Sequence record: MN158213.1
DNA length: 44,021 nucleotides
Origin: Escherichia phage BEK2-2
Direction: 5' to 3' (one strand)
Numbering within the stretch: the stretch's first letter is position 1; every line of letters starts with the position of its first letter. Positions 1 to 32,934 of this stretch are shown one piece after another. The notes under the pieces are model-generated. The model searched no databases and was not told where the DNA came from. It worked only from the letters and a program-made list of their open reading frames with translations. A program made the translations under genes and the position numbers.

Positions 1-141
1 GGCGCATACGGCATCGACTACGGCGTACTGGAATGGTTATTTAAGATGCACGGCATCGAAAACGCGCAACGTGCGTTTAAAGATATCAAGCTAATGGAAC
101 GCGTTGCGCTGGATGAGATGGCGCGGCAGAACCCCGCATAA
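1..141 (+). CDS. 3' end of a gene truncated by the window edge; possibly a tail assembly chaperone by position upstream of the tape measure gene
   Basis: Frame 1 is open from base 1 to TAA at 139-141; position resembles lambda G/GT upstream of H. No sequence-level family recognition. Confidence 0.3.
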   Translation, partial: GAYGIDYGVLEWLFKMHGIENAQRAFKDIKLMERVALDEMARQNPA

Positions 142-146
142 CGAAG

Positions 147-330
147 CGGGACAGGCGGGACGTCCCGTTTTGTCCCGCCCCTCAAAAGTGAATGGCTATG
201 CGGTTTTTCTGCATAAAGTAAGCGGGACAAAAAGCGGGACAAACAGGAGGCGGGACAAAGCGGGACAGCACCCCTGTCCCAGTCAGTGCTGCCGCTGGTT
301 TTAGCCGATCGGGACAGGCGGGACAAAGCC
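147..330. repeat. GGGACA iteron-like array, copy A (direct and inverted GCGGGACA units, including palindromes GGGACGTCCC and GGGACAG-N5-CTGTCCC)
   Basis: Read directly: at least 8 direct and 3 inverted GGGAC(A/G) units within about 180 bp; homologous to 27722-27828. Confidence 0.7.
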
Positions 331-384
331 CAGTCTTTCAGACTAGACGGGGGTCAATGGCCCCCCTCGTCTGAGACTGAATAA
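331..384. promoter_or_regulatory. Conserved 54 bp imperfect hairpin element, copy A (cagtctttcagactagacgggggtcaatggcccccctcgtctgagactgaataa)
   Basis: Identical to 27829-27882; arms agacggggg / cccccctcgtct can pair, nested inside agtct/agact arms. Confidence 0.6.
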
Positions 385-447
385 GGTTTGTTTTAAATTC
401 GCTGATACAATGACCGACGGCAACTGCATAAAAAGGGGGACTGCATA

Positions 448-3090
448 ATGGCAGATCAGGCAGCGGGCATCACGCTCAAGGCGGACGTCGCGCAAATTAA
501 AACGGCTAATACTGTGCTGGACACATTCGCGCAGAAATCCGAGAACACAGAACAGAAAGTAAAGAAATTAAACGACACACTCGGCAAGTCGAAAAAGGTT
601 ACTGGCGACGCCGCTGGAGGAATGGAAAAGTTAGCGACTGAATCGCAGCGCGCCGCCGACGGCATGACGAAACAGGAGCGACTAGCCAGCCGATTAGGCA
701 TGTCGACCAAAAACCTGGGATTTGCTTCACGGAACGCGGCATTCCAGTTACAGGATATTGCGGTAACGCTTGAGATGGGTATGCCGGTGCACCGCGTCAT
801 GCTTCAGCAGTTACCACAGCTAACCGGCGCATTCGGCGGATTAGGTAACACGCTGCGTTATGTTGCGGGCTTCCTCGGCCCAGTAGGGATCGGACTTGCG
901 GCAGTAACGGCGACGTTAGGCGTGGGCGTGGCAATCACGTCACGGGCAGAGAACCAGGTAGCCGCGCTTAATAAGACGCTGGCGCTGTCCGGTAATATTT
1001 CAGGCCTCACAGCTAACCAGATCCTTGTGCTGTCCGAGAACGCTGAGCGCATGGGCGGGTCATTTCGCAAGACGCGTGACACAATCCAGGCGCTGGCGGC
1101 GGCGGGTGTGAAAGCGGGTGGTGACTTCGGCGCATTGGCTAAGGTAGTTAATGACTTTGCGAAGGTGTCCAGCCAGCCGATCGAGGATGTGGTGGCGGCG
1201 GTGGCGAAGCTGTCAACCGACCCCGTTGGCGGACTGCGTGCGCTGGCGGATAAGTATCACGTCGTAAACGAAGCGCAGATCCAGCAGGTACAGTCGCTCG
1301 TTGATGCGGGTCGTGAGACAGACGCAGTTGCGTTGGCTAACAAAACAGCCGCTGCGTCGTTCACCAGTATGACCAATGAGGTCAAGGCGAACATGGGTAC
1401 GCTTGAGCGATCTATGAACGTCGTCACATCGGCAGCCAAATCAATGTGGGATGCCATCCTGGATGTGGGCCGCGCGCAGTCCTCCAATGAGTCCGAGATG
1501 AAAGCGCGCGAATCACTACAGCGCATGACCACGGCTTACTATGCCGAGATGAAAGCGGTAAACGCTGCCGGTGGGGTAATGACTGAAGCGCAGAAAGCAC
1601 GTATTAACATGCTTTACAGCGAACTGGTCGCCCAGGAAAAAGTGGTGGCGTCGCTCACCCTGCGTAACCGTGCTGAGCGAGACAACGCCCGCGCCGCAGA
1701 CGAATCCGCAAAGGCGAACGAGGAGGCCAACCGCACTGCCCGTGACCGCGCCGCGTTCGAGAAGGAATACGCCACCAACGCTAAGAAGCGCGCCGACGAG
1801 ATCGCCCGCCTCAATTTGCTGAATAAGCGCGGCGTTATTGATGAGAAAGAACTAGCCGAGGCGGTGAAGCAGGTAAACGAGCGGTACAAAGACCCAGCCC
1901 CGAAAAAGGCCGCGGCTGTTCGCGTGGATGCCGGTATGAAAATGCTGGAAGTCGCACGGAGCGAACTGGCCCAGCTTCGAGAATCCGGCAAGCAGATCGA
2001 AGCCAACGCGTCTACGCAGACCCGCACGCAACGCGCTCAAGCGGCCTTAAACAAGCTGATCGCCGACAATGAGCAGTTAATCGCTGCGAGCAAAGAAAGA
2101 GCGCTAACGGCAGCAGAAAAGCAGCAATTAGTCGAGTTCGGGCGCGTGAAGGAAGTCCGCGAGCAGATCGTCGAAGAAGCCAAATTGCTGGATGCGAAAG
2201 AGCAGCAGGTTAAGGCGCACGCGCAGATCGATGCCTTCGTTAAGAACCAGAACGCCGAACTAAAAGCCACCGCCGCGGGGTATGCGCTTTCCACTCGCGA
2301 AGCGGCAAACCTGCGCGAAGAATTGCAGCTAATTGACCGCCTGAAGCGGGTTGGCGCTAACGATACCGATATTGACAAGGCGGTGTCTAAGCTGCGAGAA
2401 GTGCAGGAAGCACAGACCGGCGCTAACGCCTCGTTATGGGATGGATTCAGTCGCGGGCTTAAGGATAGCGTGGATGAAATGGGTAACGGATATACGCAGA
2501 TGGCGTCGCTCACGAAATTTACATTCAGCGCTATGCAGGACACGATGAACGAGTTTTTCGAGACTGGTAAGCTGAACGCAAAGGATATGGTTAAGTCCAT
2601 CCTGAGCGAATTAATCAAGCTGGCTACCTCGCAGGCGTTCAAGTCCATCGTTAGCGCTTTCGGTGGTGACGGCGGAAAAAACGGATTGTTCGGCGCTATC
2701 TTCTCTGGCCTCACTAAGAATGCGGACGGCGGAGCGTACACAGGCGGCAATCTCGCGGCCTATTCGGGGAAAGTGGTAAGCCAGCCTACCTTTTTCAGTT
2801 ATGGCGTCCAGGCGTTCGCTAAGGGCGCTGGGTTGATGGGTGAGGCTGGACCCGAGGCCATCATGCCACTGAAGCGCGGGCCGGACGGGAAACTGGGCGT
2901 TGCCGCGTCTGGCGCAGGCGGTGGTATGGTCGTGACGACTAACGTTTACACGGGGACCGGTAAGACGGACACCAGTGTTAGCGGGCCAGACCCACGTACC
3001 GCGCAGGCGTTCGGCAAGCAAATCACCGAGGCGGTGAAGTCCGAGATCGTGAAAGCGACTAAACCAGGTGGTGTACTTTACAAACGATGA
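448..3090 (+). CDS. Tail tape measure protein
   Basis: 880 aa, Ala/Gln-rich with long coiled-coil stretches and a Gly-rich C-terminus; immediately upstream of M/L/K/I/J-like genes. Confidence 0.88.
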   Translation: MADQAAGITLKADVAQIKTANTVLDTFAQKSENTEQKVKKLNDTLGKSKKVTGDAAGGMEKLATESQRAADGMTKQERLASRLGMSTKNLGFASRNAAFQLQDIAVTLEMGMPVHRVMLQQLPQLTGAFGGLGNTLRYVAGFLGPVGIGLAAVTATLGVGVAITSRAENQVAALNKTLALSGNISGLTANQILVLSENAERMGGSFRKTRDTIQALAAAGVKAGGDFGALAKVVNDFAKVSSQPIEDVVAAVAKLSTDPVGGLRALADKYHVVNEAQIQQVQSLVDAGRETDAVALANKTAAASFTSMTNEVKANMGTLERSMNVVTSAAKSMWDAILDVGRAQSSNESEMKARESLQRMTTAYYAEMKAVNAAGGVMTEAQKARINMLYSELVAQEKVVASLTLRNRAERDNARAADESAKANEEANRTARDRAAFEKEYATNAKKRADEIARLNLLNKRGVIDEKELAEAVKQVNERYKDPAPKKAAAVRVDAGMKMLEVARSELAQLRESGKQIEANASTQTRTQRAQAALNKLIADNEQLIAASKERALTAAEKQQLVEFGRVKEVREQIVEEAKLLDAKEQQVKAHAQIDAFVKNQNAELKATAAGYALSTREAANLREELQLIDRLKRVGANDTDIDKAVSKLREVQEAQTGANASLWDGFSRGLKDSVDEMGNGYTQMASLTKFTFSAMQDTMNEFFETGKLNAKDMVKSILSELIKLATSQAFKSIVSAFGGDGGKNGLFGAIFSGLTKNADGGAYTGGNLAAYSGKVVSQPTFFSYGVQAFAKGAGLMGEAGPEAIMPLKRGPDGKLGVAASGAGGGMVVTTNVYTGTGKTDTSVSGPDPRTAQAFGKQITEAVKSEIVKATKPGGVLYKR

Positions 3091-21019: not shown

Positions 21020-21793
21020 TTAACGGCGGCGACGTTTGCGTGGTGCTTCGTCTTCGTCGTCGTCCTCATCATCTTCGTCATCGCGTGGCTTACGACGTTT
21101 ACGAGGTTTCTCATCTTCGTCGTCATCGTCATCGCGGCGCTTGGACTTTTTGGACTTGCGCGGCTTGTCGTCTTCGTCATCGCGGCGCTTGGACTTTTTG
21201 GACTTGCGCGGGCTTTCATCTTCGTCGTCGTTGTCCAGGTCTTCATCGGAGCACGAAGACCCGCCACCGAAGGCTTCACCGTCATCACGGAAGCGTAAAC
21301 CCAGCAGTCCAGCACCGAGTCCCTTGCCGTTGGTGTTGTTCCACGCCCAAATATCCAGTGACACATTGCAATAACAACCGGAGTAGATCTCCTTGCCTTC
21401 GATTTCGTCGCCTTCTACGGTCAGGCCCTGTTCGGTCTGCTTCTCGCCGAGTGACGTTTGGATGTTTGGCTGTTTGAACGATTTAGCGTTGATGTACAAC
21501 ATTCCTTCGAATTCTTCGGTTACTTCATCGCGCTCGTCGCCGTCGCGAACTGCACATTCCTTAGAATCCTGGGCGTAGTGGCGGTCCATCCACTTATCGG
21601 CATTCTTCTCGGATTTCAGCTTGTCGGTGAGCACTGCGCGCGCTGCCGCTTCCACTTTGTCCACCTGCGGATCTTCTTTATCAAGAAGAATCACGGCGCG
21701 GTATGCCGGTTTTTGTCCATCCTGTTTAGGGGTATCACGTTCCCAAATTTTCAGGAAACATACGCGCACATTTTTCAGGTTGACTTTAGCCAT
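21020..21793 (-). CDS. DUF2815-like single-stranded DNA-binding protein with highly charged repetitive C-terminal tail
   Basis: N-terminus MAKVNLKNVRVCFLKIWE typical of DUF2815; C-terminal DDEDDKPRKSKKSKRRDD repeats encoded by a tandem DNA repeat near 21100-21220. Confidence 0.6.
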   Translation of the reverse strand: MAKVNLKNVRVCFLKIWERDTPKQDGQKPAYRAVILLDKEDPQVDKVEAAARAVLTDKLKSEKNADKWMDRHYAQDSKECAVRDGDERDEVTEEFEGMLYINAKSFKQPNIQTSLGEKQTEQGLTVEGDEIEGKEIYSGCYCNVSLDIWAWNNTNGKGLGAGLLGLRFRDDGEAFGGGSSCSDEDLDNDDEDESPRKSKKSKRRDDEDDKPRKSKKSKRRDDDDDEDEKPRKRRKPRDDEDDEDDDEDEAPRKRRRR

Positions 21794-21883
21794 TTTCCAA
21801 TTCCTCATTTTCACATGTATCGGGGTTATTGGAAGCCACCCCGTTCGGCTTGGTTGCTAATTTACTTGGTTGCGCCTAAGCGG

Positions 21884-24037: not shown

Positions 24038-24553
24038 TTAATCTTCCAGTTCGAAATAGGTTTCGACGATTTCTTTTAGCTCTTTGTGGAAGTCTTCGAC
24101 GTCGTCATCTTCCAGCTTGGCGATTGATTTGATCTCGAACGATTCCAGCAGGTCGTCGAATTCGTCGTTCGCGTCGTCGTCATCACCACCGGCAATAATA
24201 GCGGCATATTGTTTGATTTCGTCGCGCATCTCCGCCAGCGGATCGGCATCTTTCTTGCCTTTGCCTTTCGCCGGGGCTTTTTTAGATTTAGCCGGTTTTT
24301 CGTCTTCGGCATCATCGTCGTCGTCGTCATCTTCTACGACTTCTTTTTTGGCCTTACCCTTCGCCGGTGCTTTTTTAGCTTTAGCCGGTTTTTCGTCTTC
24401 GTCGTCGTCATCTTCGACAACTTCTTTTTTGGCCTTAGACGGCTTCTTGTCTTCCTGTTTACCAACGGCAGCGCCAACGGTTTCATAATGCTTTGCAATG
24501 GTTTCCAGTGCTACTACGCCGCGAGTGATCAGGTTTACGATTTGCTCAAACAT
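24038..24553 (-). CDS. Highly acidic Lys/Asp/Glu repeat protein, first gene of the leftward early operon (candidate DNA mimic)
   Basis: Start placed at MFEQIVN with GGAGA site (ORF track extends to 24733); two KKEVVEDDDD(E/D)DEKPAK(A/S)KKAPAKGK repeats from a tandem DNA repeat about 24230-24440. Confidence 0.6.
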   Translation of the reverse strand: MFEQIVNLITRGVVALETIAKHYETVGAAVGKQEDKKPSKAKKEVVEDDDDEDEKPAKAKKAPAKGKAKKEVVEDDDDDDDAEDEKPAKSKKAPAKGKGKKDADPLAEMRDEIKQYAAIIAGGDDDDANDEFDDLLESFEIKSIAKLEDDDVEDFHKELKEIVETYFELED

Positions 24554-24895
24554 GGTATATCTCCGATTGGTTAAGTTTAGGTGTCGGCAGTTAACTTCGT
24601 CGGTGGCCTTAACATATTGCCAGGTTACGCGTTCTCCCGTTCGGGTAGTGGACCTGGTTATATAATCACGGTTGGGAATCCTGACACTTCGATCCGGCCC
24701 CTGCGTTGCCCCTCTCCAGTTTGCGTCCTGCATCCTGTCGACGGAGTGAATGATAGATTGGTTGCAGGATGGGTGTCAACAACTAATTTCAAAAAAAAAG
24801 CGCCGAGGCAAAATGCGACGGCGCTAACCAATAAGAGACAATGAGACGGGAATTATTATTACACGCGTGCGCGCCCGTTTCAATATCCAAAGGAT

Positions 24896-24955: not shown

Positions 24956-25285
24956 ATGAATATCAAAGAAGCAATTGAAGTGTTATCTAATGCAATCCGC
25001 GGCGAAGCGGGTAAATCCTGGTATTACACAAATGCGGTGGATACTCTGTTATTTGAAGTGTCCAGATTATCGCGTGCTGAGAAGGAGCTTACCGCGAAGC
25101 TGGAATTGCTCAACGGCACGGCAGCAAGCAAGCTGCAAAAACACAATGAAGAAATGGAAGAATACAAAAAGCAGGTTATCCGTTTACGCAATGAGGGAAA
25201 GTCATGGGCAATGATCGCCGAGTTGACCGGAATTAATCAGAGCACAGTGCGCTCCTGGGTACGCAATAATAAAACTTCAAAGTAA
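24956..25285 (+). CDS. Putative HTH transcriptional regulator
   Basis: C-terminal helix-turn-helix-like segment SWAMIAELTGINQSTVRSWVRNN; first gene of the rightward early operon. Confidence 0.55.
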   Translation: MNIKEAIEVLSNAIRGEAGKSWYYTNAVDTLLFEVSRLSRAEKELTAKLELLNGTAASKLQKHNEEMEEYKKQVIRLRNEGKSWAMIAELTGINQSTVRSWVRNNKTSK

Positions 25286-25295
25286 GGCAACGGCA

Positions 25296-27560
25296 ATGAG
25301 CTTGATTAAATTCGCTGTAACACGACCCGCTAAAAAAGGCGAAAAAGCCAGGGCGGAAAACTTCCAGATGAGTACCGAAGAGTTTTTCGAATTTATCAAT
25401 GATGCGAAAGAAATCTCCTCGGTGCATATCAACAAAACGGAAGATAAAGCGGAGTATGCGCGCCGCAAGCGTAAGGCTGATGGGATTGTGGCTTATACCA
25501 GTGACGGATTACGCCGCAAGACCAGTGCGGTGGACCGCTCGATCCTGTTCTTCGATATTGACCGTACCGACACCCGCACCCTACGCCGCTGCCGTAAGGC
25601 TTTCATCGACGCGGGGCTGGAGCACGTATTCCACACAACCACCGGCGACCGTCACCCGCTTAAGGGCGGAACGCGTTGCGCTCGCTTCCTGGTACTCACT
25701 GACAAGCCTGTACCGGCTGAAGACCTGGGCCGTGTCCAGTATGCGCTATTACACCAACTTGGCCTGTCAGATGTGGACTTCGACGATTGCACGAAAGACA
25801 CAAACCGCCTGATGTACCTGCCACACCAGCAGTCTGTTATTAAATGCCATTACGGAAAGCGCGCCCGTGTCCGTCGTCTGCTTCGCCTGGCCGATAAGCT
25901 GGGAATGGAAAAAGAGGAAGTACGACGAGAACTGACCCAGGGCGATAACGGCGTGGCGGACGGTATTCTGGATTGGTGCTTCCAGGCGGGATTCGAACCG
26001 CTGTCGTCCGGTCGTGGTTATGAAGTGCCATGCCCGAACGAACACCTGCACAGTGGTGAAGGGTCCACCGCTATCATGGTTAAGGATGGCGAGATCCGTT
26101 TCAAGTGTATGCACACCGGCAACGAGTGTTGCTCGGAGCTAAATAGACACCAGCACCTTGCGCTACGCCTCATCGGGATACCGGACCACCTGAACGTCGA
26201 ACCGCACAACATGTCACGTAAGCAAATCGCCGCCATCCTCCCAGGGCTGGACGACGAGGAAGTCGAATCCTTATATGAACATATTGTTGATGCGGTTGGC
26301 GACGGCGAAGAATACGGCGTGTGCACCGATGCGGATCTGGATAACGAGCCGGTTGCGCTGTTCAGTAAGCACGACCCGATTATCGAGGGGTTGGTTAACT
26401 TTAAATCAACCTGGTATATGGCGGGTGAGTCGAACATCGGTAAATCGTTCTACGTGCTGGGGCAAATGGGTGCGGTTGCCGCGGGGATTCCGTTCGGTGG
26501 CGCGAAGGTCGTCCAGTCTCATTGCTTCTATTTCGACGCGGAAGGTGGCGAAGCCTCCAACCAGCGTAAGGAAGCATTGCAGATTAAATATGAGCACGAC
26601 CTGGACAAGCTGCACATTATCGATCTGCAATCACGCGGCTGGGATATCACCAGCAAATCCGGCTTGCGTGAAGTTATCAGCTTCATCAACCGCACCGCTA
26701 ACGGCGAGCCGGTTGGCCTGGTGGCGTTCGACTCACTCAACCAGACTGTTGCGCTGCGGTCCGCCGATGCTAAACCGTTCGACGAGAACAACGCCAGCGA
26801 TATGGGTGAAGTGGTCAAGGCGCTGAAGGCCATTGCGGAAAATACAGGCGGCAGTGCGGGCGTCATCCACCACCCGGCGAAGGGTGCAAACGGCAGCAGA
26901 TCTCCCCGTGGGTCCGGCGCGCTGCATGGCGCTGTCGATTCTGCGTTCTTCCTGGAGCAACCGGACGACAATCAGCCGGGCCAATTGAACCTGTATCACG
27001 AAAAGGCACGTAACGGCATCAAGCAAGCGCCGCGCGGCTTCGTCCTGCTCAAGTGCAAGGTTAAGGTGGATCTCCGCAAGTCCGAAGCGTTCGAATCACA
27101 CCAGTCCACCAGCATCGGGCCTGACTTCGGCGACGTGGTTGCCGGTTGGGACGTCAAGCCAATTGCATCCACGCCACGCGACGAGACTCTTTATCTCGTA
27201 CCGGTCGCCCTGGCACCGTTCGCCATCGAACAGGCAAAGGCCGCGGGCAAGGCCGCAGTTAAGGATGAGAACGCCGCAGGACCGCGCAACGAAAAAGAGA
27301 AAGTTCTTTATGCGGCACTGGAAAAACTGATGGAAGATAACCCGGACCATACCGGATTCAGTAAATCGGCAATTGTCCGCCAGGCTGGACTTGCGAAAGG
27401 TGGCACATCGACGAAGGCAATAGACGATATGGTGGAGCGCGGCGTGCTCGGTTTTTATACAGATCCGCACACCGGGGCCATCTATGGGTCGTCGAATATC
27501 GTCATCAAAACGAATATACCCATCACGCTTTCTGCGACCGACGATGACCTGAAAGATTAA
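25296..27560 (+). CDS. DNA primase/helicase (prim-pol-like N-terminus plus RecA-fold helicase)
   Basis: N-terminal FFDIDR (DxD); C-terminal Walker A GESNIGKS and Walker B-like VGLVAFDSLNQ. Confidence 0.7.
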   Translation: MSLIKFAVTRPAKKGEKARAENFQMSTEEFFEFINDAKEISSVHINKTEDKAEYARRKRKADGIVAYTSDGLRRKTSAVDRSILFFDIDRTDTRTLRRCRKAFIDAGLEHVFHTTTGDRHPLKGGTRCARFLVLTDKPVPAEDLGRVQYALLHQLGLSDVDFDDCTKDTNRLMYLPHQQSVIKCHYGKRARVRRLLRLADKLGMEKEEVRRELTQGDNGVADGILDWCFQAGFEPLSSGRGYEVPCPNEHLHSGEGSTAIMVKDGEIRFKCMHTGNECCSELNRHQHLALRLIGIPDHLNVEPHNMSRKQIAAILPGLDDEEVESLYEHIVDAVGDGEEYGVCTDADLDNEPVALFSKHDPIIEGLVNFKSTWYMAGESNIGKSFYVLGQMGAVAAGIPFGGAKVVQSHCFYFDAEGGEASNQRKEALQIKYEHDLDKLHIIDLQSRGWDITSKSGLREVISFINRTANGEPVGLVAFDSLNQTVALRSADAKPFDENNASDMGEVVKALKAIAENTGGSAGVIHHPAKGANGSRSPRGSGALHGAVDSAFFLEQPDDNQPGQLNLYHEKARNGIKQAPRGFVLLKCKVKVDLRKSEAFESHQSTSIGPDFGDVVAGWDVKPIASTPRDETLYLVPVALAPFAIEQAKAAGKAAVKDENAAGPRNEKEKVLYAALEKLMEDNPDHTGFSKSAIVRQAGLAKGGTSTKAIDDMVERGVLGFYTDPHTGAIYGSSNIVIKTNIPITLSATDDDLKD

Positions 27561-27670
27561 ATCCAGCGCGCATTGGTTGCCGATATGGGGATTCCCATAT
27601 CGCTAAAAGGTTAAATCCTGCGCGCATTGGTTGCCATTTTTAGTGTTTTTATCCGGTCGTATTGGTTGCC
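27557..27670. repeat. Direct repeats ttaaatccWgcgcgcattggttgcc (two copies plus a third partial) flanking palindrome gatatggg-N-cccatatc
   Basis: Read directly, immediately after the primase/helicase stop codon. Confidence 0.6.
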
Positions 27671-27721
27671 GTGTAGTGTGAATACAGTGAATAGTTATGC
27701 AATAAAACTGCATAAACCAAA

Positions 27722-27828
27722 CGGGACAGAAAGCGGGACAAACATGGGGCGGGACAAAGCGGGACAGCACCCCCGTCCCGCCCCGGATGGCGCGGCCTGG
27801 CGGGGAGCGGGACAAGCGGGACAAACCC
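27722..27828. repeat. GGGACA iteron-like array, copy B
   Basis: Direct GGGACA units and palindrome GGGACAGCACCCCCGTCCC; homologous to copy A at 147-330. Confidence 0.7.
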
Positions 27829-27882
27829 CAGTCTTTCAGACTAGACGGGGGTCAATGGCCCCCCTCGTCTGAGACTGAATAA
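27829..27882. promoter_or_regulatory. Conserved 54 bp imperfect hairpin element, copy B
   Basis: Identical to 331-384. Confidence 0.6.
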
Positions 27883-28037
27883 AATCCGGAGATTGCAAAA
27901 CACACGGCAGCATGATACGAAGTGCGGTCGTCTACTAACTAGGCAACCAATGCGGGTTGTATTATGCTGAGTGAAAAATGCGGTTTGCAGCCACAGCAGA
28001 TAGCGATCAACTTTTTCATGCGCGTGATTAATATTGG

Positions 28038-28066
28038 TTGCGTCCACCCCGGCACCAGGCTATATT
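28038..28066 (+). promoter_or_regulatory. Putative promoter TTGCGT-N17-TATATT overlapping two ATTGGTTGC motifs
   Basis: Read directly; 28 bp upstream of the 28095 gene. Confidence 0.35.
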
Positions 28067-28094: not shown

Positions 28095-28400
28095 ATGAAA
28101 GCATTAATCTGGAATTACACAATGGCGGTGGCGAAGCTGTATGAAGCGAAGCACACAGACGGCAACGCAGACGACGCGCGCCAGGTTGTCATCCTGGCCC
28201 AGCAGGGAATCATGCACGCGTTCGACGATATGTTTGCCAGTCTGGACGAACTGGAACCGCTGCGCGTGGCAATCTGCGAATATGCGATGGCTTTTGCCCG
28301 CGAGCGCCTGGCGTATCGCTTCGGGATCGGTGAGACGGCAGTAACAAACGTCGCCCGGATTAAAGCCCAGCGCGAACTATTCGCCCAGCTTGCGAAATAA
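28095..28400 (+). CDS. Hypothetical early protein
   Basis: ATG with GAGGA site; 101 aa. Confidence 0.55.
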   Translation: MKALIWNYTMAVAKLYEAKHTDGNADDARQVVILAQQGIMHAFDDMFASLDELEPLRVAICEYAMAFARERLAYRFGIGETAVTNVARIKAQRELFAQLAK

Positions 28401-32804: not shown

Positions 32805-32934
32805 CGGCAACCCATAAGCCTCCCAGCCTGCCGATTTGGTGGGCTTTTTTGTGCCTGTTATAATCCCCCTTAGATGGCAGGGCCGTCTCCTATGTTGCCG
32901 ATGGTCGGCGCATATGAACAAAAGGGCTTATATC

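What the first reader, a model, noticed from the sequence alone, without database searches (positions are those of the whole stretch)
147..447. Second, diverged copy of the GGGACA-iteron plus identical 54 bp hairpin module, upstream of the tape measure gene
An approximately 200 bp element (189-384) is homologous to 27678-27882. The iteron portions have diverged with substitutions and indels, yet the terminal hairpin element is base-for-base identical in both copies, which argues for selection on that structure or recent conversion. The copy sits between a chaperone-like gene end and the tape measure gene, an unusual place for a long structured non-coding region. The differences between copies are not synonymous in the overlapping ORF-track frames (104..304 and 27627..27872), so a DNA- or RNA-level role is favoured. 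Candidates are a second origin, a packaging or recombination site, or a transcription control element ahead of the tail genes.
Basis: seen in the sequence. Interest (0 to 1): 0.7.

Follow-up and report, generated by a model that had tools for sequence, protein, structure and literature searches.

The report
Duplicated iteron-plus-hairpin origin-like module
This coliphage carries two copies of a conserved non-coding module (short protein-binding repeats plus a long hairpin), one right after its primase-helicase gene and one before the tail tape-measure gene; it is most likely a replication origin and a second copy of it.

Summary
Window 187-384 and 27686-27882 are homologous, about 79% identical overall. 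A 56-bp block holding a 20-bp interrupted hairpin is identical in both copies (329-384 and 27827-27882).

The window is a Dhillonvirus-type genome, and 158 public phage records contain the module, nearly all of the complete genomes twice. The Sodalis phage SO-1 GenBank record already flags "region A/B" repeats, but I found no functional study.

Copy B has counterparts in distant relatives (Cornellvirus FSL SP-031, phiEap-2, metagenomic phages). There a module of the same layout follows the primase-helicase gene directly:
- an AT-rich TGAATAGTTATGCA box,
- 3-4 direct and 1-2 inverted hexamer repeats,
- a spacer, then two or three more repeats,
- a three-segment hairpin,
- a CGGCAGC box.

The repeat sequence is lineage-specific (GGGACA, CGGACA, CCGACA, GGGGAGA, GGGATA, GGGGAT).

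The adjacent protein is an AEP primase, an AAA_25 helicase, a predicted C-terminal winged helix and an acidic tail.

Best reading: an iteron origin bound by this self-loading initiator, as in SaPI Rep. Copy A would be a second origin or fork barrier, as with SPP1 oriR or P4 crr. This is inferred, not shown.

Packaging site, intrinsic terminator, known RNA family and coding sequence are disfavoured.

The parts
1..141 (+). 3' end of the gpT-like tail assembly chaperone gene (stop codon 139-141); left boundary of region A
   Evidence: Pfam DUF1799 and phrog_680/14875 matches. The SO-1 record has gp15/gp16 followed by 'region A' at the same place.
146..181 (.). Upstream palindromic iteron cluster of region A: two forward sites (148-153, 157-162) and two reverse sites (161-166, 171-176)
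Evidence: (pair I2).
189..216 (+). AT-rich box of copy A: TGAATGGCTATGCG, a 7-nt spacer, then TGCATAA
   Evidence: 61% A+T here against 45.6% for the genome. Homologous to 27688-27715 and to the TGAATAGTTATGCA box of all other lineages.
223..267 (+). Four direct CGGGACA iterons of copy A, starting at 223, 235, 251 and 261 (start-to-start spacing 12, 16, 10)
   Evidence: near-invariant in 30 copies.
275..280 (-). Inverted iteron (TGTCCC on the + strand) that forms a palindrome with the fourth direct iteron
   Evidence: An equivalent inverted repeat sits at this position in every lineage.
281..309 (.). Spacer of copy A; it contains GCTGCCG (288-294), the reverse complement of the CGGCAGC box that follows the hairpin
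310..325 (+). Two further direct CGGGACA iterons of copy A (310-316, 319-325)
329..384 (.). The 56-bp block identical in both copies. The hairpin is 331-379: outer stem CAGTC/GACTG, middle stem TCAGAC/GTCTGA plus GA/TC, inner stem GGGGGTC/GGCCCCC, loop AAT. It is followed by TGAATAA (378-384).
   Evidence: arms 99.8-99.9% conserved while the loop varies.
385..447 (+). Region between the copy A hairpin and the tape-measure start: an AT-rich stretch (70-73% A+T), CGGCAAC (418-424) and two TGCATAA boxes (425-431, 442-448)
448..3090 (+). Tail tape-measure gene; right boundary of region A
   Evidence: phrog_24, E = 6.5e-183.
25296..27560 (+). Primase-helicase, 754 aa: AEP primase (about aa 1-205), Zn-finger region, AAA_25 helicase (aa 357-531), predicted winged helix (about aa 665-740, nt 27288-27515) and an acidic DDDLKD tail. 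This is the candidate iteron-binding initiator.
   Evidence: phrog_3228 and PF13481. N-terminal model with pLDDT 84 matches the S-2L PrimPol AEP domain, E = 5.7e-6. The C-terminal model's confident part is H-H-H-strand-strand and matches only winged-helix proteins, best E = 0.012.
27688..27715 (+). AT-rich box of copy B: TGAATAGTTATGCA, a 7-nt spacer, then TGCATAA. A further TGAATAC lies at 27679-27685.
   Evidence: 72% A+T. The 14-mer is shared with all other lineages.
27722..27766 (+). Four direct CGGGACA iterons of copy B (starts 27722, 27734, 27750, 27760)
27774..27780 (-). Inverted iteron of copy B
27781..27807 (.). G+C-rich spacer of copy B (13-17% A+T). It is conserved among B copies and differs from the spacer of copy A.
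27808..27823 (+). Two further direct CGGGACA iterons of copy B
27827..27882 (.). The 56-bp block of copy B identical to 329-384; hairpin at 27829-27877
27905..27911 (+). CGGCAGC box (ACACGGCAGC) after the hairpin, conserved in all lineages that carry the module

Best explanation
The module is an iteron-type replication-origin element of the phage.

Copy B (27679-27911) lies immediately 3' of the gene for a self-loading initiator. That protein combines an AEP primase, an AAA_25 hexameric-type helicase, a C-terminal winged helix and an acidic tail.

Proposed mechanism:
1. The winged helix binds the GGGACA hexamers, which occur as direct arrays plus inverted copies.
2. Bound protein assembles on the DNA next to the AT-rich TGAATAGTTATGCA...TGCATAA box.
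3. The duplex opens, and the long palindrome can then extrude or fold as a hairpin. Its apical 3' arm is an inverted iteron or a near-iteron. The hairpin would mark where the helicase loads or where the AEP primase starts.

Copy A (146-447) is a second set of binding sites for the same protein, placed in the late tail-gene cluster 16.5 kb downstream. It would act as a second origin, as a cis-acting partner of the first (like P4 crr), or as a protein-bound fork barrier that helps switch from circle-to-circle to concatemer replication (as proposed for SPP1 oriR).

Shown here: the anatomy, its conservation, its tie to the helicase gene, the lineage-specific repeats and the protein's domain make-up.
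Inferred: that this protein binds the repeats, that replication starts there, and what copy A does.
For: 1. Synteny across deep divergence. Relatives whose primase-helicase is only 37-45% identical have a module of the same order directly after that gene. The order is box, 3-4 direct plus 1-2 inverted repeats, spacer, 2-3 repeats, three-segment hairpin, TTATTCA, ACACGGCAGC. The hexamer differs by lineage: TCCGACA, AGGGATA, GGGGATG, CGGACA, GGGGGAGA. In FSL SP-031, 7 of 9 GGGGAGA sites in the genome lie within 150 bp after the gene's stop. A far more distant AAA_25 helicase (24% identity, no primase domain) also ends at the same 14-mer box followed by GGACAT repeats.

2. Binding-site-like conservation. 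Iteron columns are 95% conserved (35 of 42 invariant) against 77-90% for the inter-iteron spacers, in 30 copies from 15 genomes.

3. Protein architecture. The N-terminus has an AEP fold (Foldseek E = 5.7e-6 to the S-2L PrimPol). The middle is AAA_25. The C-terminal ~80 aa are modelled at pLDDT 80-85 as helix-helix-helix-wing, and the top-ranked matches are almost all winged-helix proteins.

4. Co-variation. The C-terminal region is the most diverged part between lineages with different repeats: 52-59% against 76-92% elsewhere for L023/L068, and 26-48% against 60-83% for L026/L028. It is 96-98% identical between the window and HK578, which share GGGACA although their N-termini are only 36-71% identical. 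The one lineage with an unrelated C-terminus (L027) lacks GGGA-type repeats.

5. The hairpin is conserved as a structure. Independent folds of eight lineages or variants all give a long three-segment hairpin at the same position, with different sequences. Within one genome the two copies differ by a compensatory A-T to G-C change, AGACG/CGTCT against GGACG/CGTCC. The apex carries the inverted repeat of its own lineage: TGTCGG, TGTCCG, ATCCCC, TGTCCC.

6. Precedents.
- SaPI Rep/PriRep helicases bind 6-12 penta- or hexanucleotide iterons immediately downstream of rep through a C-terminal winged helix (PMC9371898).
- SPP1 has oriL in its initiator gene and a similar oriR in a non-coding gap within the late genes. 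Both are bound by gp38, and oriR is proposed as a fork barrier (PMC6316719, PMC3485210).

7. Both copies are retained in essentially all of the 158 related records. The module is absent from 5,426 E. coli genomes and 72,556 plasmids.
Against: - There are no binding or replication data.
- The winged-helix call rests on a model with mean pLDDT 62 (80-85 only in the relevant 70 residues), and no Foldseek hit has E below 0.001.
- The GC-skew minimum lies at the divergent transcription point near 24-25 kb, not at either module.
- The spacer between the two iteron sets is G+C-rich in copy B (13-17% A+T). This is unlike the central AT-rich region of SaPI origins; here the AT-rich box lies to one side.
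- Six relatives with a homologous primase-helicase (L019-L022, L024, L025) have terminators or other genes, not a module, after the gene.
- A 68% relative has different residues at the start of the putative recognition helix but the same GGGACA repeat.
- Both copies lie in transcribed intergenic gaps on the coding strand, so an RNA-level role cannot be excluded.
Confidence: 0.55

Rival explanations
1. RNA-level element. Both copies are transcribed as parts of long + strand mRNAs. The 20-bp interrupted hairpin would be an RNase III-type processing site or a 3' stabiliser that separates upstream from downstream messages (primase-helicase | late genes; chaperone | tape measure). The repeats would be protein-binding or structural RNA motifs.
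For: - Both copies sit in intergenic gaps between same-strand genes.
- The RNA fold is strong (-30.8 kcal/mol, z = -5.0) and slightly better on the + strand, with a U-G pair that would be a C-A mismatch on the other strand.
- The hairpin structure is conserved across lineages, with a compensatory change.
- GCUGCCG (spacer) and CGGCAGC (after the hairpin) could pair to close a domain.
Against: - No Rfam family matches, even at E = 1; the only hits are chance matches to miRNA-precursor models.
- There is no U-tract.
- Inverted repeat copies, and repeat arrays upstream of the box, fit double-stranded DNA recognition better.
- The module tracks the helicase gene, not a class of transcript. In relatives the strong sigma-70-like promoter lies downstream of the module, so the module is not in that transcript's leader.
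- As ssDNA the hairpin folds equally well on both strands.
Confidence: 0.15
2. Transcription-control array. A phage DNA-binding protein occupies the GGGACA sites to switch downstream promoters on or off (late genes after copy B, tail genes after copy A), or to act as a transcriptional roadblock or insulator. Replication would not be involved.
For: - Copy B marks the boundary between the replication genes and the lysis/structural genes on the same strand.
- In relatives a near-consensus promoter (TTGACA-17-TATTGT) lies 60-150 bp downstream of the module.
- A small HTH protein gene (24956-25285) sits next to the primase-helicase gene.
- A second over-represented motif, ATTGGTTGC, surrounds copy B.
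Against: - No consensus promoter is found in region A or B of the window.
- The HTH protein is confined to Dhillonvirus and is poorly conserved in HK578, which has the same repeats. Other lineages carry an unrelated XRE-type protein there (PMC4913238).
- The conserved partner of the module across lineages is the helicase gene.
- This reading does not explain the conserved long hairpin.
Confidence: 0.15
3. Packaging (pac/cos) or site-specific recombination site recognised by the terminase or by a recombinase.
For: - Repeated short motifs are typical of terminase small-subunit binding sites.
- Several public records begin or end close to copy B.
- PhageTerm reports for this genus disagree with one another: cos in PMC10673088; headful in PMC10059673, PMC13348001 and PMC10783031.
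Against: - The reported 10-nt cos end (ATCTTAAGGG) has its nearest equivalent at about 32862-32876, just upstream of terS. That is 5 kb from copy B and 11 kb from copy A.
- The module tracks the helicase gene, not the terminase genes, in all lineages.
- Two pac sites per genome would be odd.
- No integrase or recombinase is encoded nearby.
- Record ends near a 200-bp repeat are what assembly breaks would produce.
Confidence: 0.05
4. A selfish or accidental duplication with no function of its own: copy A would be a passively retained copy of copy B, or a MITE-like insertion.
For: - Copy A exists only in the Dhillonvirus lineage.
- In other lineages the module is bounded by short inverted TGAATA/TATTCA sequences.
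- 78 bp of region A are missing from this window compared with all close relatives, so part of region A is dispensable.
Against: - Copy A is present at the same site in essentially all of the 158 records. Its iterons are 96% conserved and its hairpin arms 99.8% conserved, while its spacers drift.
- A diverged relative keeps copy A with a compensatory stem change.
- No target-site duplication and no additional scattered copies were found.
Confidence: 0.05

Closest known systems
SaPI replication origins with Rep/PriRep self-loading helicases (Staphylococcus aureus pathogenicity islands; PMC9371898)
   Same: - Short penta- or hexanucleotide iterons, 6-12 copies, lie immediately downstream of the helicase ORF.
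- The repeat sequence is lineage-specific and matched to the initiator.
- The initiator carries a C-terminal winged helix. In SaPI5 the primase is fused to the helicase, as here.
- Repeats occur in both orientations.
   Different: - The helicase here is AAA_25 (RecA/RepA-like), not the SF3-like AAA+ helicase of SaPI Rep.
- The primase is of the AEP type.
- The AT-rich element lies beside the main repeat array rather than at its centre.
- There is a conserved long hairpin and conserved flanking boxes.
- There is a second copy elsewhere in the genome.
- The host is Gram-negative and the element is a virulent phage, not a satellite.
- Binding has not been tested.
Bacillus phage SPP1 oriL / oriR (PMC6316719, PMC3485210)
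   Same: - There are two distant copies (about 13 kb apart there, 16.5 kb here) of a similarly organised repeat element.
- One copy is at the initiator gene.
- The other is in a non-coding gap that interrupts the late virion-gene order.
- This offers a mechanism for the second copy: an initiator-bound fork barrier that triggers the theta-to-sigma switch.
   Different: - The SPP1 initiator gp38 is a separate origin-binding protein that works with a loader and a DnaB-type helicase and uses the host primase.
- oriL lies inside gene 38, not after it.
- No hairpin element is described for SPP1.
- No sequence or protein homology was shown here.
Satellite phage P4 ori / crr with the alpha protein
   Same: - A single polypeptide carries primase, helicase and a C-terminal winged-helix origin-binding domain.
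- It recognises an octamer repeat present at two separate cis-acting loci, ori and crr, and both are needed.
   Different: - P4 alpha has a different primase type and an SF3-type helicase.
- Its repeat is TGTTCACC.
- The two loci are 4.5 kb apart.
- There is no conserved hairpin.
- Membership was not tested here, and 1KA8 was not among the top Foldseek hits.
RSF1010/R1162 oriV
   Same: - Iterons are followed by hairpin-forming single-strand initiation signals, at which a plasmid-specific primase starts.
- The helicase (RepA) belongs to the same broad AAA_25/RepA class. The only PDB sequence hit to that class was RSF1010 RepA, at E = 0.45.
   Different: - In RSF1010 the initiator (RepC), helicase (RepA) and primase (RepB') are three separate proteins.
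- Its iterons are 20 bp long.
- It has two hairpins, on opposite strands.
- A priming role for the phage hairpin is pure inference.

Membership tests
Iteron origin served by a self-loading initiator-helicase (SaPI Rep / P4 alpha type) | An array of at least six short (5-8 nt) repeats immediately downstream of, or adjacent to, the initiator-helicase ORF | tested here: met
   Copy B starts 120-160 bp after the stop codon and has 7 sites. The same placement is seen in at least 7 other lineages.
Iteron origin served by a self-loading initiator-helicase (SaPI Rep / P4 alpha type) | The initiator has a helicase domain and a C-terminal winged-helix DNA-binding domain | tested here: inconclusive
   AAA_25 is clear (6.3e-19). 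The C-terminal model is confident only for about 70 residues (pLDDT 80-85). The top-ranked Foldseek hits are almost all winged-helix proteins, but the best E is 0.012.
Iteron origin served by a self-loading initiator-helicase (SaPI Rep / P4 alpha type) | The repeat sequence is lineage-specific and co-varies with the initiator's DNA-binding region | tested here: met
   Six or more hexamer variants occur across lineages. The C-terminal region is the most diverged part between lineages with different repeats, and is 96-98% identical where the repeat is shared. This is a correlation only, and it is confounded by phylogeny.
Iteron origin served by a self-loading initiator-helicase (SaPI Rep / P4 alpha type) | An AT-rich unwinding region flanked by repeats in opposite orientations | tested here: inconclusive
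   An AT-rich box (61-75% A+T) adjoins the array in all lineages. It has repeats on both sides in region A and in other lineages, but not in region B of the window. The inter-array spacer of copy B is G+C-rich.
Iteron origin served by a self-loading initiator-helicase (SaPI Rep / P4 alpha type) | The helicase is homologous to SaPI Rep or P4 alpha (SF3-like AAA+) | tested here: not met
   The helicase is AAA_25/RepA-like, and the primase has an AEP fold. The resemblance is therefore functional analogy, not family membership.
Iteron origin served by a self-loading initiator-helicase (SaPI Rep / P4 alpha type) | The initiator binds the repeats, and the element supports initiator-dependent replication | not testable with these tools
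   This needs EMSA or footprinting, an ori-plasmid amplification assay, or marker-frequency analysis.
Dual phage origins (SPP1 oriL/oriR; P4 ori/crr) | Two distant loci with the same repeat organisation, one at the initiator gene and one in a non-coding gap elsewhere | tested here: met
   The copies lie at 27679-27911 and 146-447, in the same orientation and about 79% identical. Both are conserved in nearly all complete genomes among the 158 matching records.
Dual phage origins (SPP1 oriL/oriR; P4 ori/crr) | The same initiator binds both loci, and the second locus affects replication mode or efficiency | not testable with these tools
   No data are available. This is inferred from the shared invariant repeats.
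Intrinsic (Rho-independent) terminator | A G+C-rich stem-loop followed directly by a T/U run | tested here: not met
   The scan does not report the hairpin. The sequence after the stem is AATAAGG (copy A) or AATAAAA (copy B). The 'terminator' annotated in record LR999870 lies in the repeat palindrome, not at this hairpin.
Any curated RNA family (Rfam 15), tRNA or tmRNA | A covariance-model match at or near the gathering score | tested here: not met
   No hit at gathering score. At E <= 1 there are only 18-22-bit chance matches to miRNA-precursor models in region A and none in region B. ARAGORN finds none.
Packaging site (cos/pac) | Location at or next to the terminase genes, with virion ends mapping there | tested here: not met
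   The cos-like sequence and terS lie at about 32.86-32.94 kb (PMC10673088). End mapping itself could not be tested here.
Host repetitive extragenic elements or plasmid origins | Similar sequence present in host chromosomes or plasmids | tested here: not met
   No blastn match in 5,426 E. coli genomes or in 72,556 plasmids.

The most novel reading that the evidence does not exclude
A family of enterobacterial siphophages (Dhillonvirus, Cornellvirus, phiEap-2-like and metagenomic relatives) uses a previously undescribed type of origin. A fused AEP-primase / RecA-type helicase / winged-helix protein would recognise lineage-specific hexamer iterons. It would then load or prime at a conserved three-segment hairpin that presents an inverted iteron at its apex. 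Dhillonviruses have added a second copy inside the tail-gene cluster. That copy is kept similar to the first by occasional gene conversion, and it works as a second origin or as a programmed fork barrier controlling the switch to concatemer synthesis. This would be a convergent counterpart of SPP1 oriR in Gram-negative virulent phages.
Probability: 0.3. Interest if true: 0.65.

Novelty: new variant of a known kind. Interest (0 to 1): 0.5.

Why it matters
Replication origins of virulent siphophages that encode their own polymerase and primase-helicase are rarely mapped. If the reading is right, three things follow.

- It gives a sequence-defined origin for well over a hundred sequenced E. coli, Shigella and Salmonella phages, including therapy candidates and phages of the BASEL collection.
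- It provides a natural series of initiator/iteron specificity pairs for studying how a winged helix re-targets by single-base steps.
- It gives a testable second example, in Gram-negative hosts, of a duplicated origin inside the late genes, the arrangement proposed to drive the theta-to-sigma switch in SPP1.

There are also practical points. The two 200-bp direct repeats are likely to break or mis-join assemblies, and several public records annotate spurious 'hypothetical proteins' across them. They are also sites to avoid, or to exploit, when engineering these phages.

Tried and rejected
- **Coding.** ORFs 104-304, 18-326(-), 27627-27872 and 27603-27824(-) are rejected. Orthologous copies carry single-base indels, and conservation follows the repeats rather than codons.
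- **Frameshift extension of the chaperone.** Rejected. The gene ending at 141 is already the gpT-like part.
- **Known RNA, tRNA or tmRNA.** No hits.
- **Intrinsic terminator or sigma-70 promoter.** Not found by scan.
- **put/nut-like antiterminator.** Unlikely, because in relatives the promoter lies downstream of the module.
- **CsrA-type GGA sponge RNA.** Considered because most repeat variants contain GGA. Rejected because the L023 repeat (CCGACA) lacks GGA, and because inverted copies are part of the conserved layout.
- **The 109-aa HTH protein (24956-25285) as the repeat binder.** Rejected as the main candidate. It is confined to the genus and poorly conserved in HK578 despite identical repeats.
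- **ArgR box.** The box resembles TNTGAATWWWWATTCANW, and tandem boxes sit 21 bp apart. This is recalled from memory only, the central bases are often not A/T, and I make no claim. Weak DnaA-box similarity (TTATGCA..) is treated the same way.
- **GC skew as an origin marker.** Uninformative; it follows transcription direction.
- **RNAalifold on a MAFFT alignment of hairpins from all lineages.** Uninformative, because the sequences are too different to align by sequence. I relied instead on independent single-sequence folds.
- **Second copy in distant lineages.** Not found. There is one hairpin match per contig, one place per record, and one GGGGAGA cluster in FSL SP-031.
- **Literature.** No paper found in the held library describes these regions. 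Only the SO-1 GenBank note does, and its text is truncated in the tool output.
Full report
**What the window is.** The 44,021-bp window is a nearly complete Dhillonvirus-type E. coli siphophage genome. 158 records of the phage collection match both queried regions.

Genes run on the + strand from about 24.9 kb, through the window end, to about 12.5 kb, and on the - strand between about 12.5 and 24.7 kb. Copy A of the finding lies between the stop codon of a gpT-like tail assembly chaperone (139-141; DUF1799, phrog_680) and the tape-measure gene (448-3090). Copy B lies between a 754-aa 'replicative helicase-primase' (25296-27560; phrog_3228, E = 0) and a run of small genes starting at 28095.

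- The repeat finder pairs 187-280 with 27686-27779 (84%) and 307-384 with 27805-27882 (96%).
- The identical run is 56 bp, 329-384 = 27827-27882.
- The hairpin at 331-379 folds at -30.8 kcal/mol as RNA (z = -5.0), with three stacked segments totalling 20 bp. As ssDNA either strand folds at about -13 to -14 kcal/mol.
- CGGGACA occurs 19 times against 6.35 expected, and 14 of the 19 lie in the two modules.
- Counting both orientations, region A has 11 GGGAC[AG] sites and region B has 7.
- Single-base indels among orthologous copies rule out the overlapping ORFs.

**It has been seen before, but not explained.** The RefSeq record of Sodalis phage SO-1 annotates 'region A' (before the tape-measure gene) and 'region B' (after the helicase-primase gene). 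One other record labels part of copy B a terminator, and several call hypothetical proteins across it. I found no paper in the held library that analyses these regions.

**Conservation within the genus.** I aligned 30 copies (A and B from 15 genomes).
- The six direct repeats are 95% conserved (35 of 42 columns invariant).
- The hairpin arms are 99.8-99.9% conserved.
- The hairpin loop is 78% conserved, the inter-repeat spacers 77-90%, and the AT-rich box 82%.
- Mean identities are A-A 87.9%, B-B 87.6%, A-B within a genome 79.9% and A-B between genomes 78.4%.

Within the genus, then, the two copies behave as separate, old, positionally orthologous elements under purifying selection. The base-for-base identity of the hairpin in this window is not a sign of recent conversion.

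**The key result: copy B belongs to a wider, syntenic module family.** I fetched loci around relatives of the primase-helicase and scanned IMG/VR for the 14-mer TGAATAGTTATGCA. The same ordered layout appears directly after the primase-helicase gene in lineages whose protein is only 37-45% identical. These include Salmonella phage FSL SP-031 (Cornellvirus) and Enterobacter phage phiEap-2. The layout is:
1. one or two tandem AT-rich boxes 21 bp apart (TGAATAGTTATGCA...);
2. three or four direct hexamer repeats;
3. one or two inverted repeats, forming a palindrome with the last direct one;
4. a 25-45-bp spacer, often containing GCTGCCG;
5. two or three more direct repeats;
6. a long three-segment hairpin;
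7. TTATTCA;
8. ACACGGCAGC;
9. in those relatives, a near-consensus sigma-70 promoter and the next gene.

The hexamer differs by lineage: GGGACA here, TCCGACA, CGGACA, AGGGATA, GGGGATG, GGGGGAGA and GGACAT. These differ from one another by one or two bases.

In FSL SP-031, 7 of the 9 GGGGAGA sites in the genome lie within 150 bp after the gene's stop, and there is no gap before its tape-measure gene. A very distant AAA_25 helicase, 24% identical and without a primase domain, also ends at the same box followed by GGACAT repeats and a palindrome.

Six other relatives have terminators or convergent genes there instead, so the association is frequent but not universal.

**The hairpin is conserved as a structure.** Independent folds of the equivalent segment from eight lineages or variants all give an outer, a middle and a G-rich inner stem, with different sequences (z from -1.2 to -5.0).

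The apical 3' arm carries the inverted repeat of its own lineage: TGTCGG with CCGACA, TGTCCG with CGGACA, ATCCCC with GGGGAT, and TGTCCC in an 83% relative. The window has a one-mismatch version, TGGCCC.

A diverged Dhillon-like genome (IMG/VR contig 3300045988_050407) has both copies. Its two hairpins differ by a compensatory change, AGACG...CGTCT against GGACG...CGTCC.

In that genome copy A is 78.1% identical to its own copy B, but only 65.2% identical to the window's copy A. B-B between the two genomes is 77.9%. Over deeper time, therefore, the copies evolve in concert, by gene conversion or re-duplication.

**The neighbouring protein looks like an initiator.**
- The N-terminal 345 aa model well (pLDDT 84). 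Their best PDB match is the AEP domain of the cyanophage S-2L primase-polymerase (E = 5.7e-6), followed by LigD and Prim-PolC polymerase domains. A Cys/His cluster follows.
- The centre is AAA_25, RepA/RecA-like. The only PDB sequence hit of that class is RSF1010 RepA, at E = 0.45.
- The last ~90 aa are predicted, at pLDDT 80-85, as helix, helix, helix, two strands. The top-ranked Foldseek hits are almost all winged-helix proteins (MarR family, ORC, RIOK2). No hit has E below 0.001, and the best is 0.012.
- An acidic DDDL tail ends the protein in all lineages.
- This C-terminal region is the most diverged part between lineages with different repeats, yet it is 96-98% identical between the window and HK578. 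Those two share GGGACA although their N-termini are only 36-71% identical.
- The adjacent 109-aa HTH protein is confined to the genus and poorly conserved in HK578, so it is a worse candidate binder.

**Comparison with known systems.**
- SaPI Rep and PriRep proteins are self-loading helicases. Their C-terminal winged helix binds 6-12 penta- or hexanucleotide iterons located immediately downstream of rep (PMC9371898). Layout and logic are the same as here, but the helicase is of a different superfamily, so this is analogy, not membership.
- Phage SPP1 has oriL in its initiator gene and a similarly organised oriR about 13 kb away, in a non-coding gap that interrupts the late virion genes. Both are bound by gp38, and oriR-bound gp38 is proposed to stall the fork and trigger the switch to concatemer synthesis (PMC6316719, PMC3485210). 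This is the closest precedent for copy A.
- P4 alpha with ori and crr, and RSF1010 oriV with iterons plus ssi hairpins, are further analogues. I cite these from memory only.

**Rivals.**
- *Packaging is unlikely.* A PhageTerm study of a Dhillonvirus reports a 10-nt 5' cos end, ATCTTAAGGG (PMC10673088). Its nearest equivalent in the window lies at about 32862-32876, just before terS. Other papers report headful packaging without placing a pac site in these regions (PMC10059673, PMC13348001, PMC10783031).
- *The hairpin is not an intrinsic terminator.* No consensus promoter is present either.
- *No Rfam family, tRNA or tmRNA matches*.
- *The module is absent from E. coli genomes and from plasmids*.
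- *An RNA-level role remains possible.* Both copies are transcribed intergenic segments, so the hairpin could, for example, be an RNase III site.
- *A purely transcriptional role for the repeats* cannot be excluded either.

**Weaknesses of the origin reading.**
- There is no biochemical or replication evidence.
- The winged-helix prediction is only moderately confident.
- GC skew is uninformative.
- The spacer between the repeat sets is G+C-rich in copy B.
- A 68% relative has different residues at the start of the putative recognition helix but the same repeat.

**Verdict.** I put about 0.55 on the module being an iteron origin element bound by the primase-helicase, with copy A a second binding locus (origin, crr-like partner or fork barrier). 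It is a new variant of a known kind and of moderate interest.

Noticed in passing
window 10518, 13712, 15282, 15299, 18241, 24757, 27572, 27626, 27661, 27943, 28033, 28064, 28598, 39086, 39100: ATTGGTTGC occurs 15 times against 0.43 expected, mostly in intergenic gaps. Six copies flank module B, and two overlap a weak TTGCGT-N17-TATATT promoter-like site at 28038-28066. Other lineages have an analogous TGTTGGCTG/CAGCCAACA motif, often just before the ribosome-binding site of the gene that follows the module. It is probably the operator of a phage regulator.
   Followed up: partly
L027 5269-5553 and L045 5255-5338 (IMG/VR contig 2700989012_000001): In a relative with 45% primase-helicase identity, GCAACCA/TGGTTGC clusters replace the GGGA-type repeats after the primase-helicase gene. 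They recur near the chaperone/tape-measure junction, after three inserted minus-strand ORFs. Its primase-helicase C-terminus is unrelated to the winged-helix region of the other lineages.
   Followed up: partly
window 181-187, compared with L079 11165-11245 (HK578): Region A of this window is 78 bp shorter than in all 30 best-matching relatives. The missing piece holds two TGCATA boxes and a palindromic GGGACA pair, and the deletion lies between short CCTC(T)AAAA-like repeats. That sub-module therefore appears dispensable.
   Followed up: partly
window 32820-32880: A terminator-like hairpin (CCCAGCCTGCCGATTTGGTGGGCTTTTTTGTG) is followed by AATCCCCCTTAGATGG just upstream of the small terminase gene. 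The reverse complement of the latter resembles the 5' cos end ATCTTAAGGG reported for Dhillonvirus EE09. This is the likely packaging end region.
   Followed up: partly
window 21020-21814 (-) and 24038-24733 (-): Two minus-strand ORFs contain internal repeats that read on the + strand as runs of GTC/TTC triplets (repeat families D1-D6). These look like repeat-rich early proteins of unknown function; I did not translate them.
   Followed up: no
window 44021 / 1: The window is not a closed circle. About 0.5 kb is missing between its end and its start, by comparison with SO-1 gp15/gp16: the gpG-like chaperone gene and the start of the gpT-like part.
   Followed up: no
L084 5908-7400 (IMG/VR contig 3300037153_000557, 55 kb): A distant AAA_25 helicase without a primase domain ends at the same TGAATAGTTATGCA box. 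GGACAT repeats and a palindrome follow. The next gene has a weak DnaG-type zinc ribbon, so helicase and primase are split here.
   Followed up: partly
public records found (e.g. PP759150 HH3, PQ658967 UDS3lw, NC_073058 WFI, MZ234026 CHD2B1): Several deposited Dhillonvirus genomes begin or end within a few hundred bases of module B, and one ends inside it. This fits assembly breaks at the ~200-bp duplicated module. Many records also annotate 'hypothetical proteins' across these non-coding regions.
   Followed up: no
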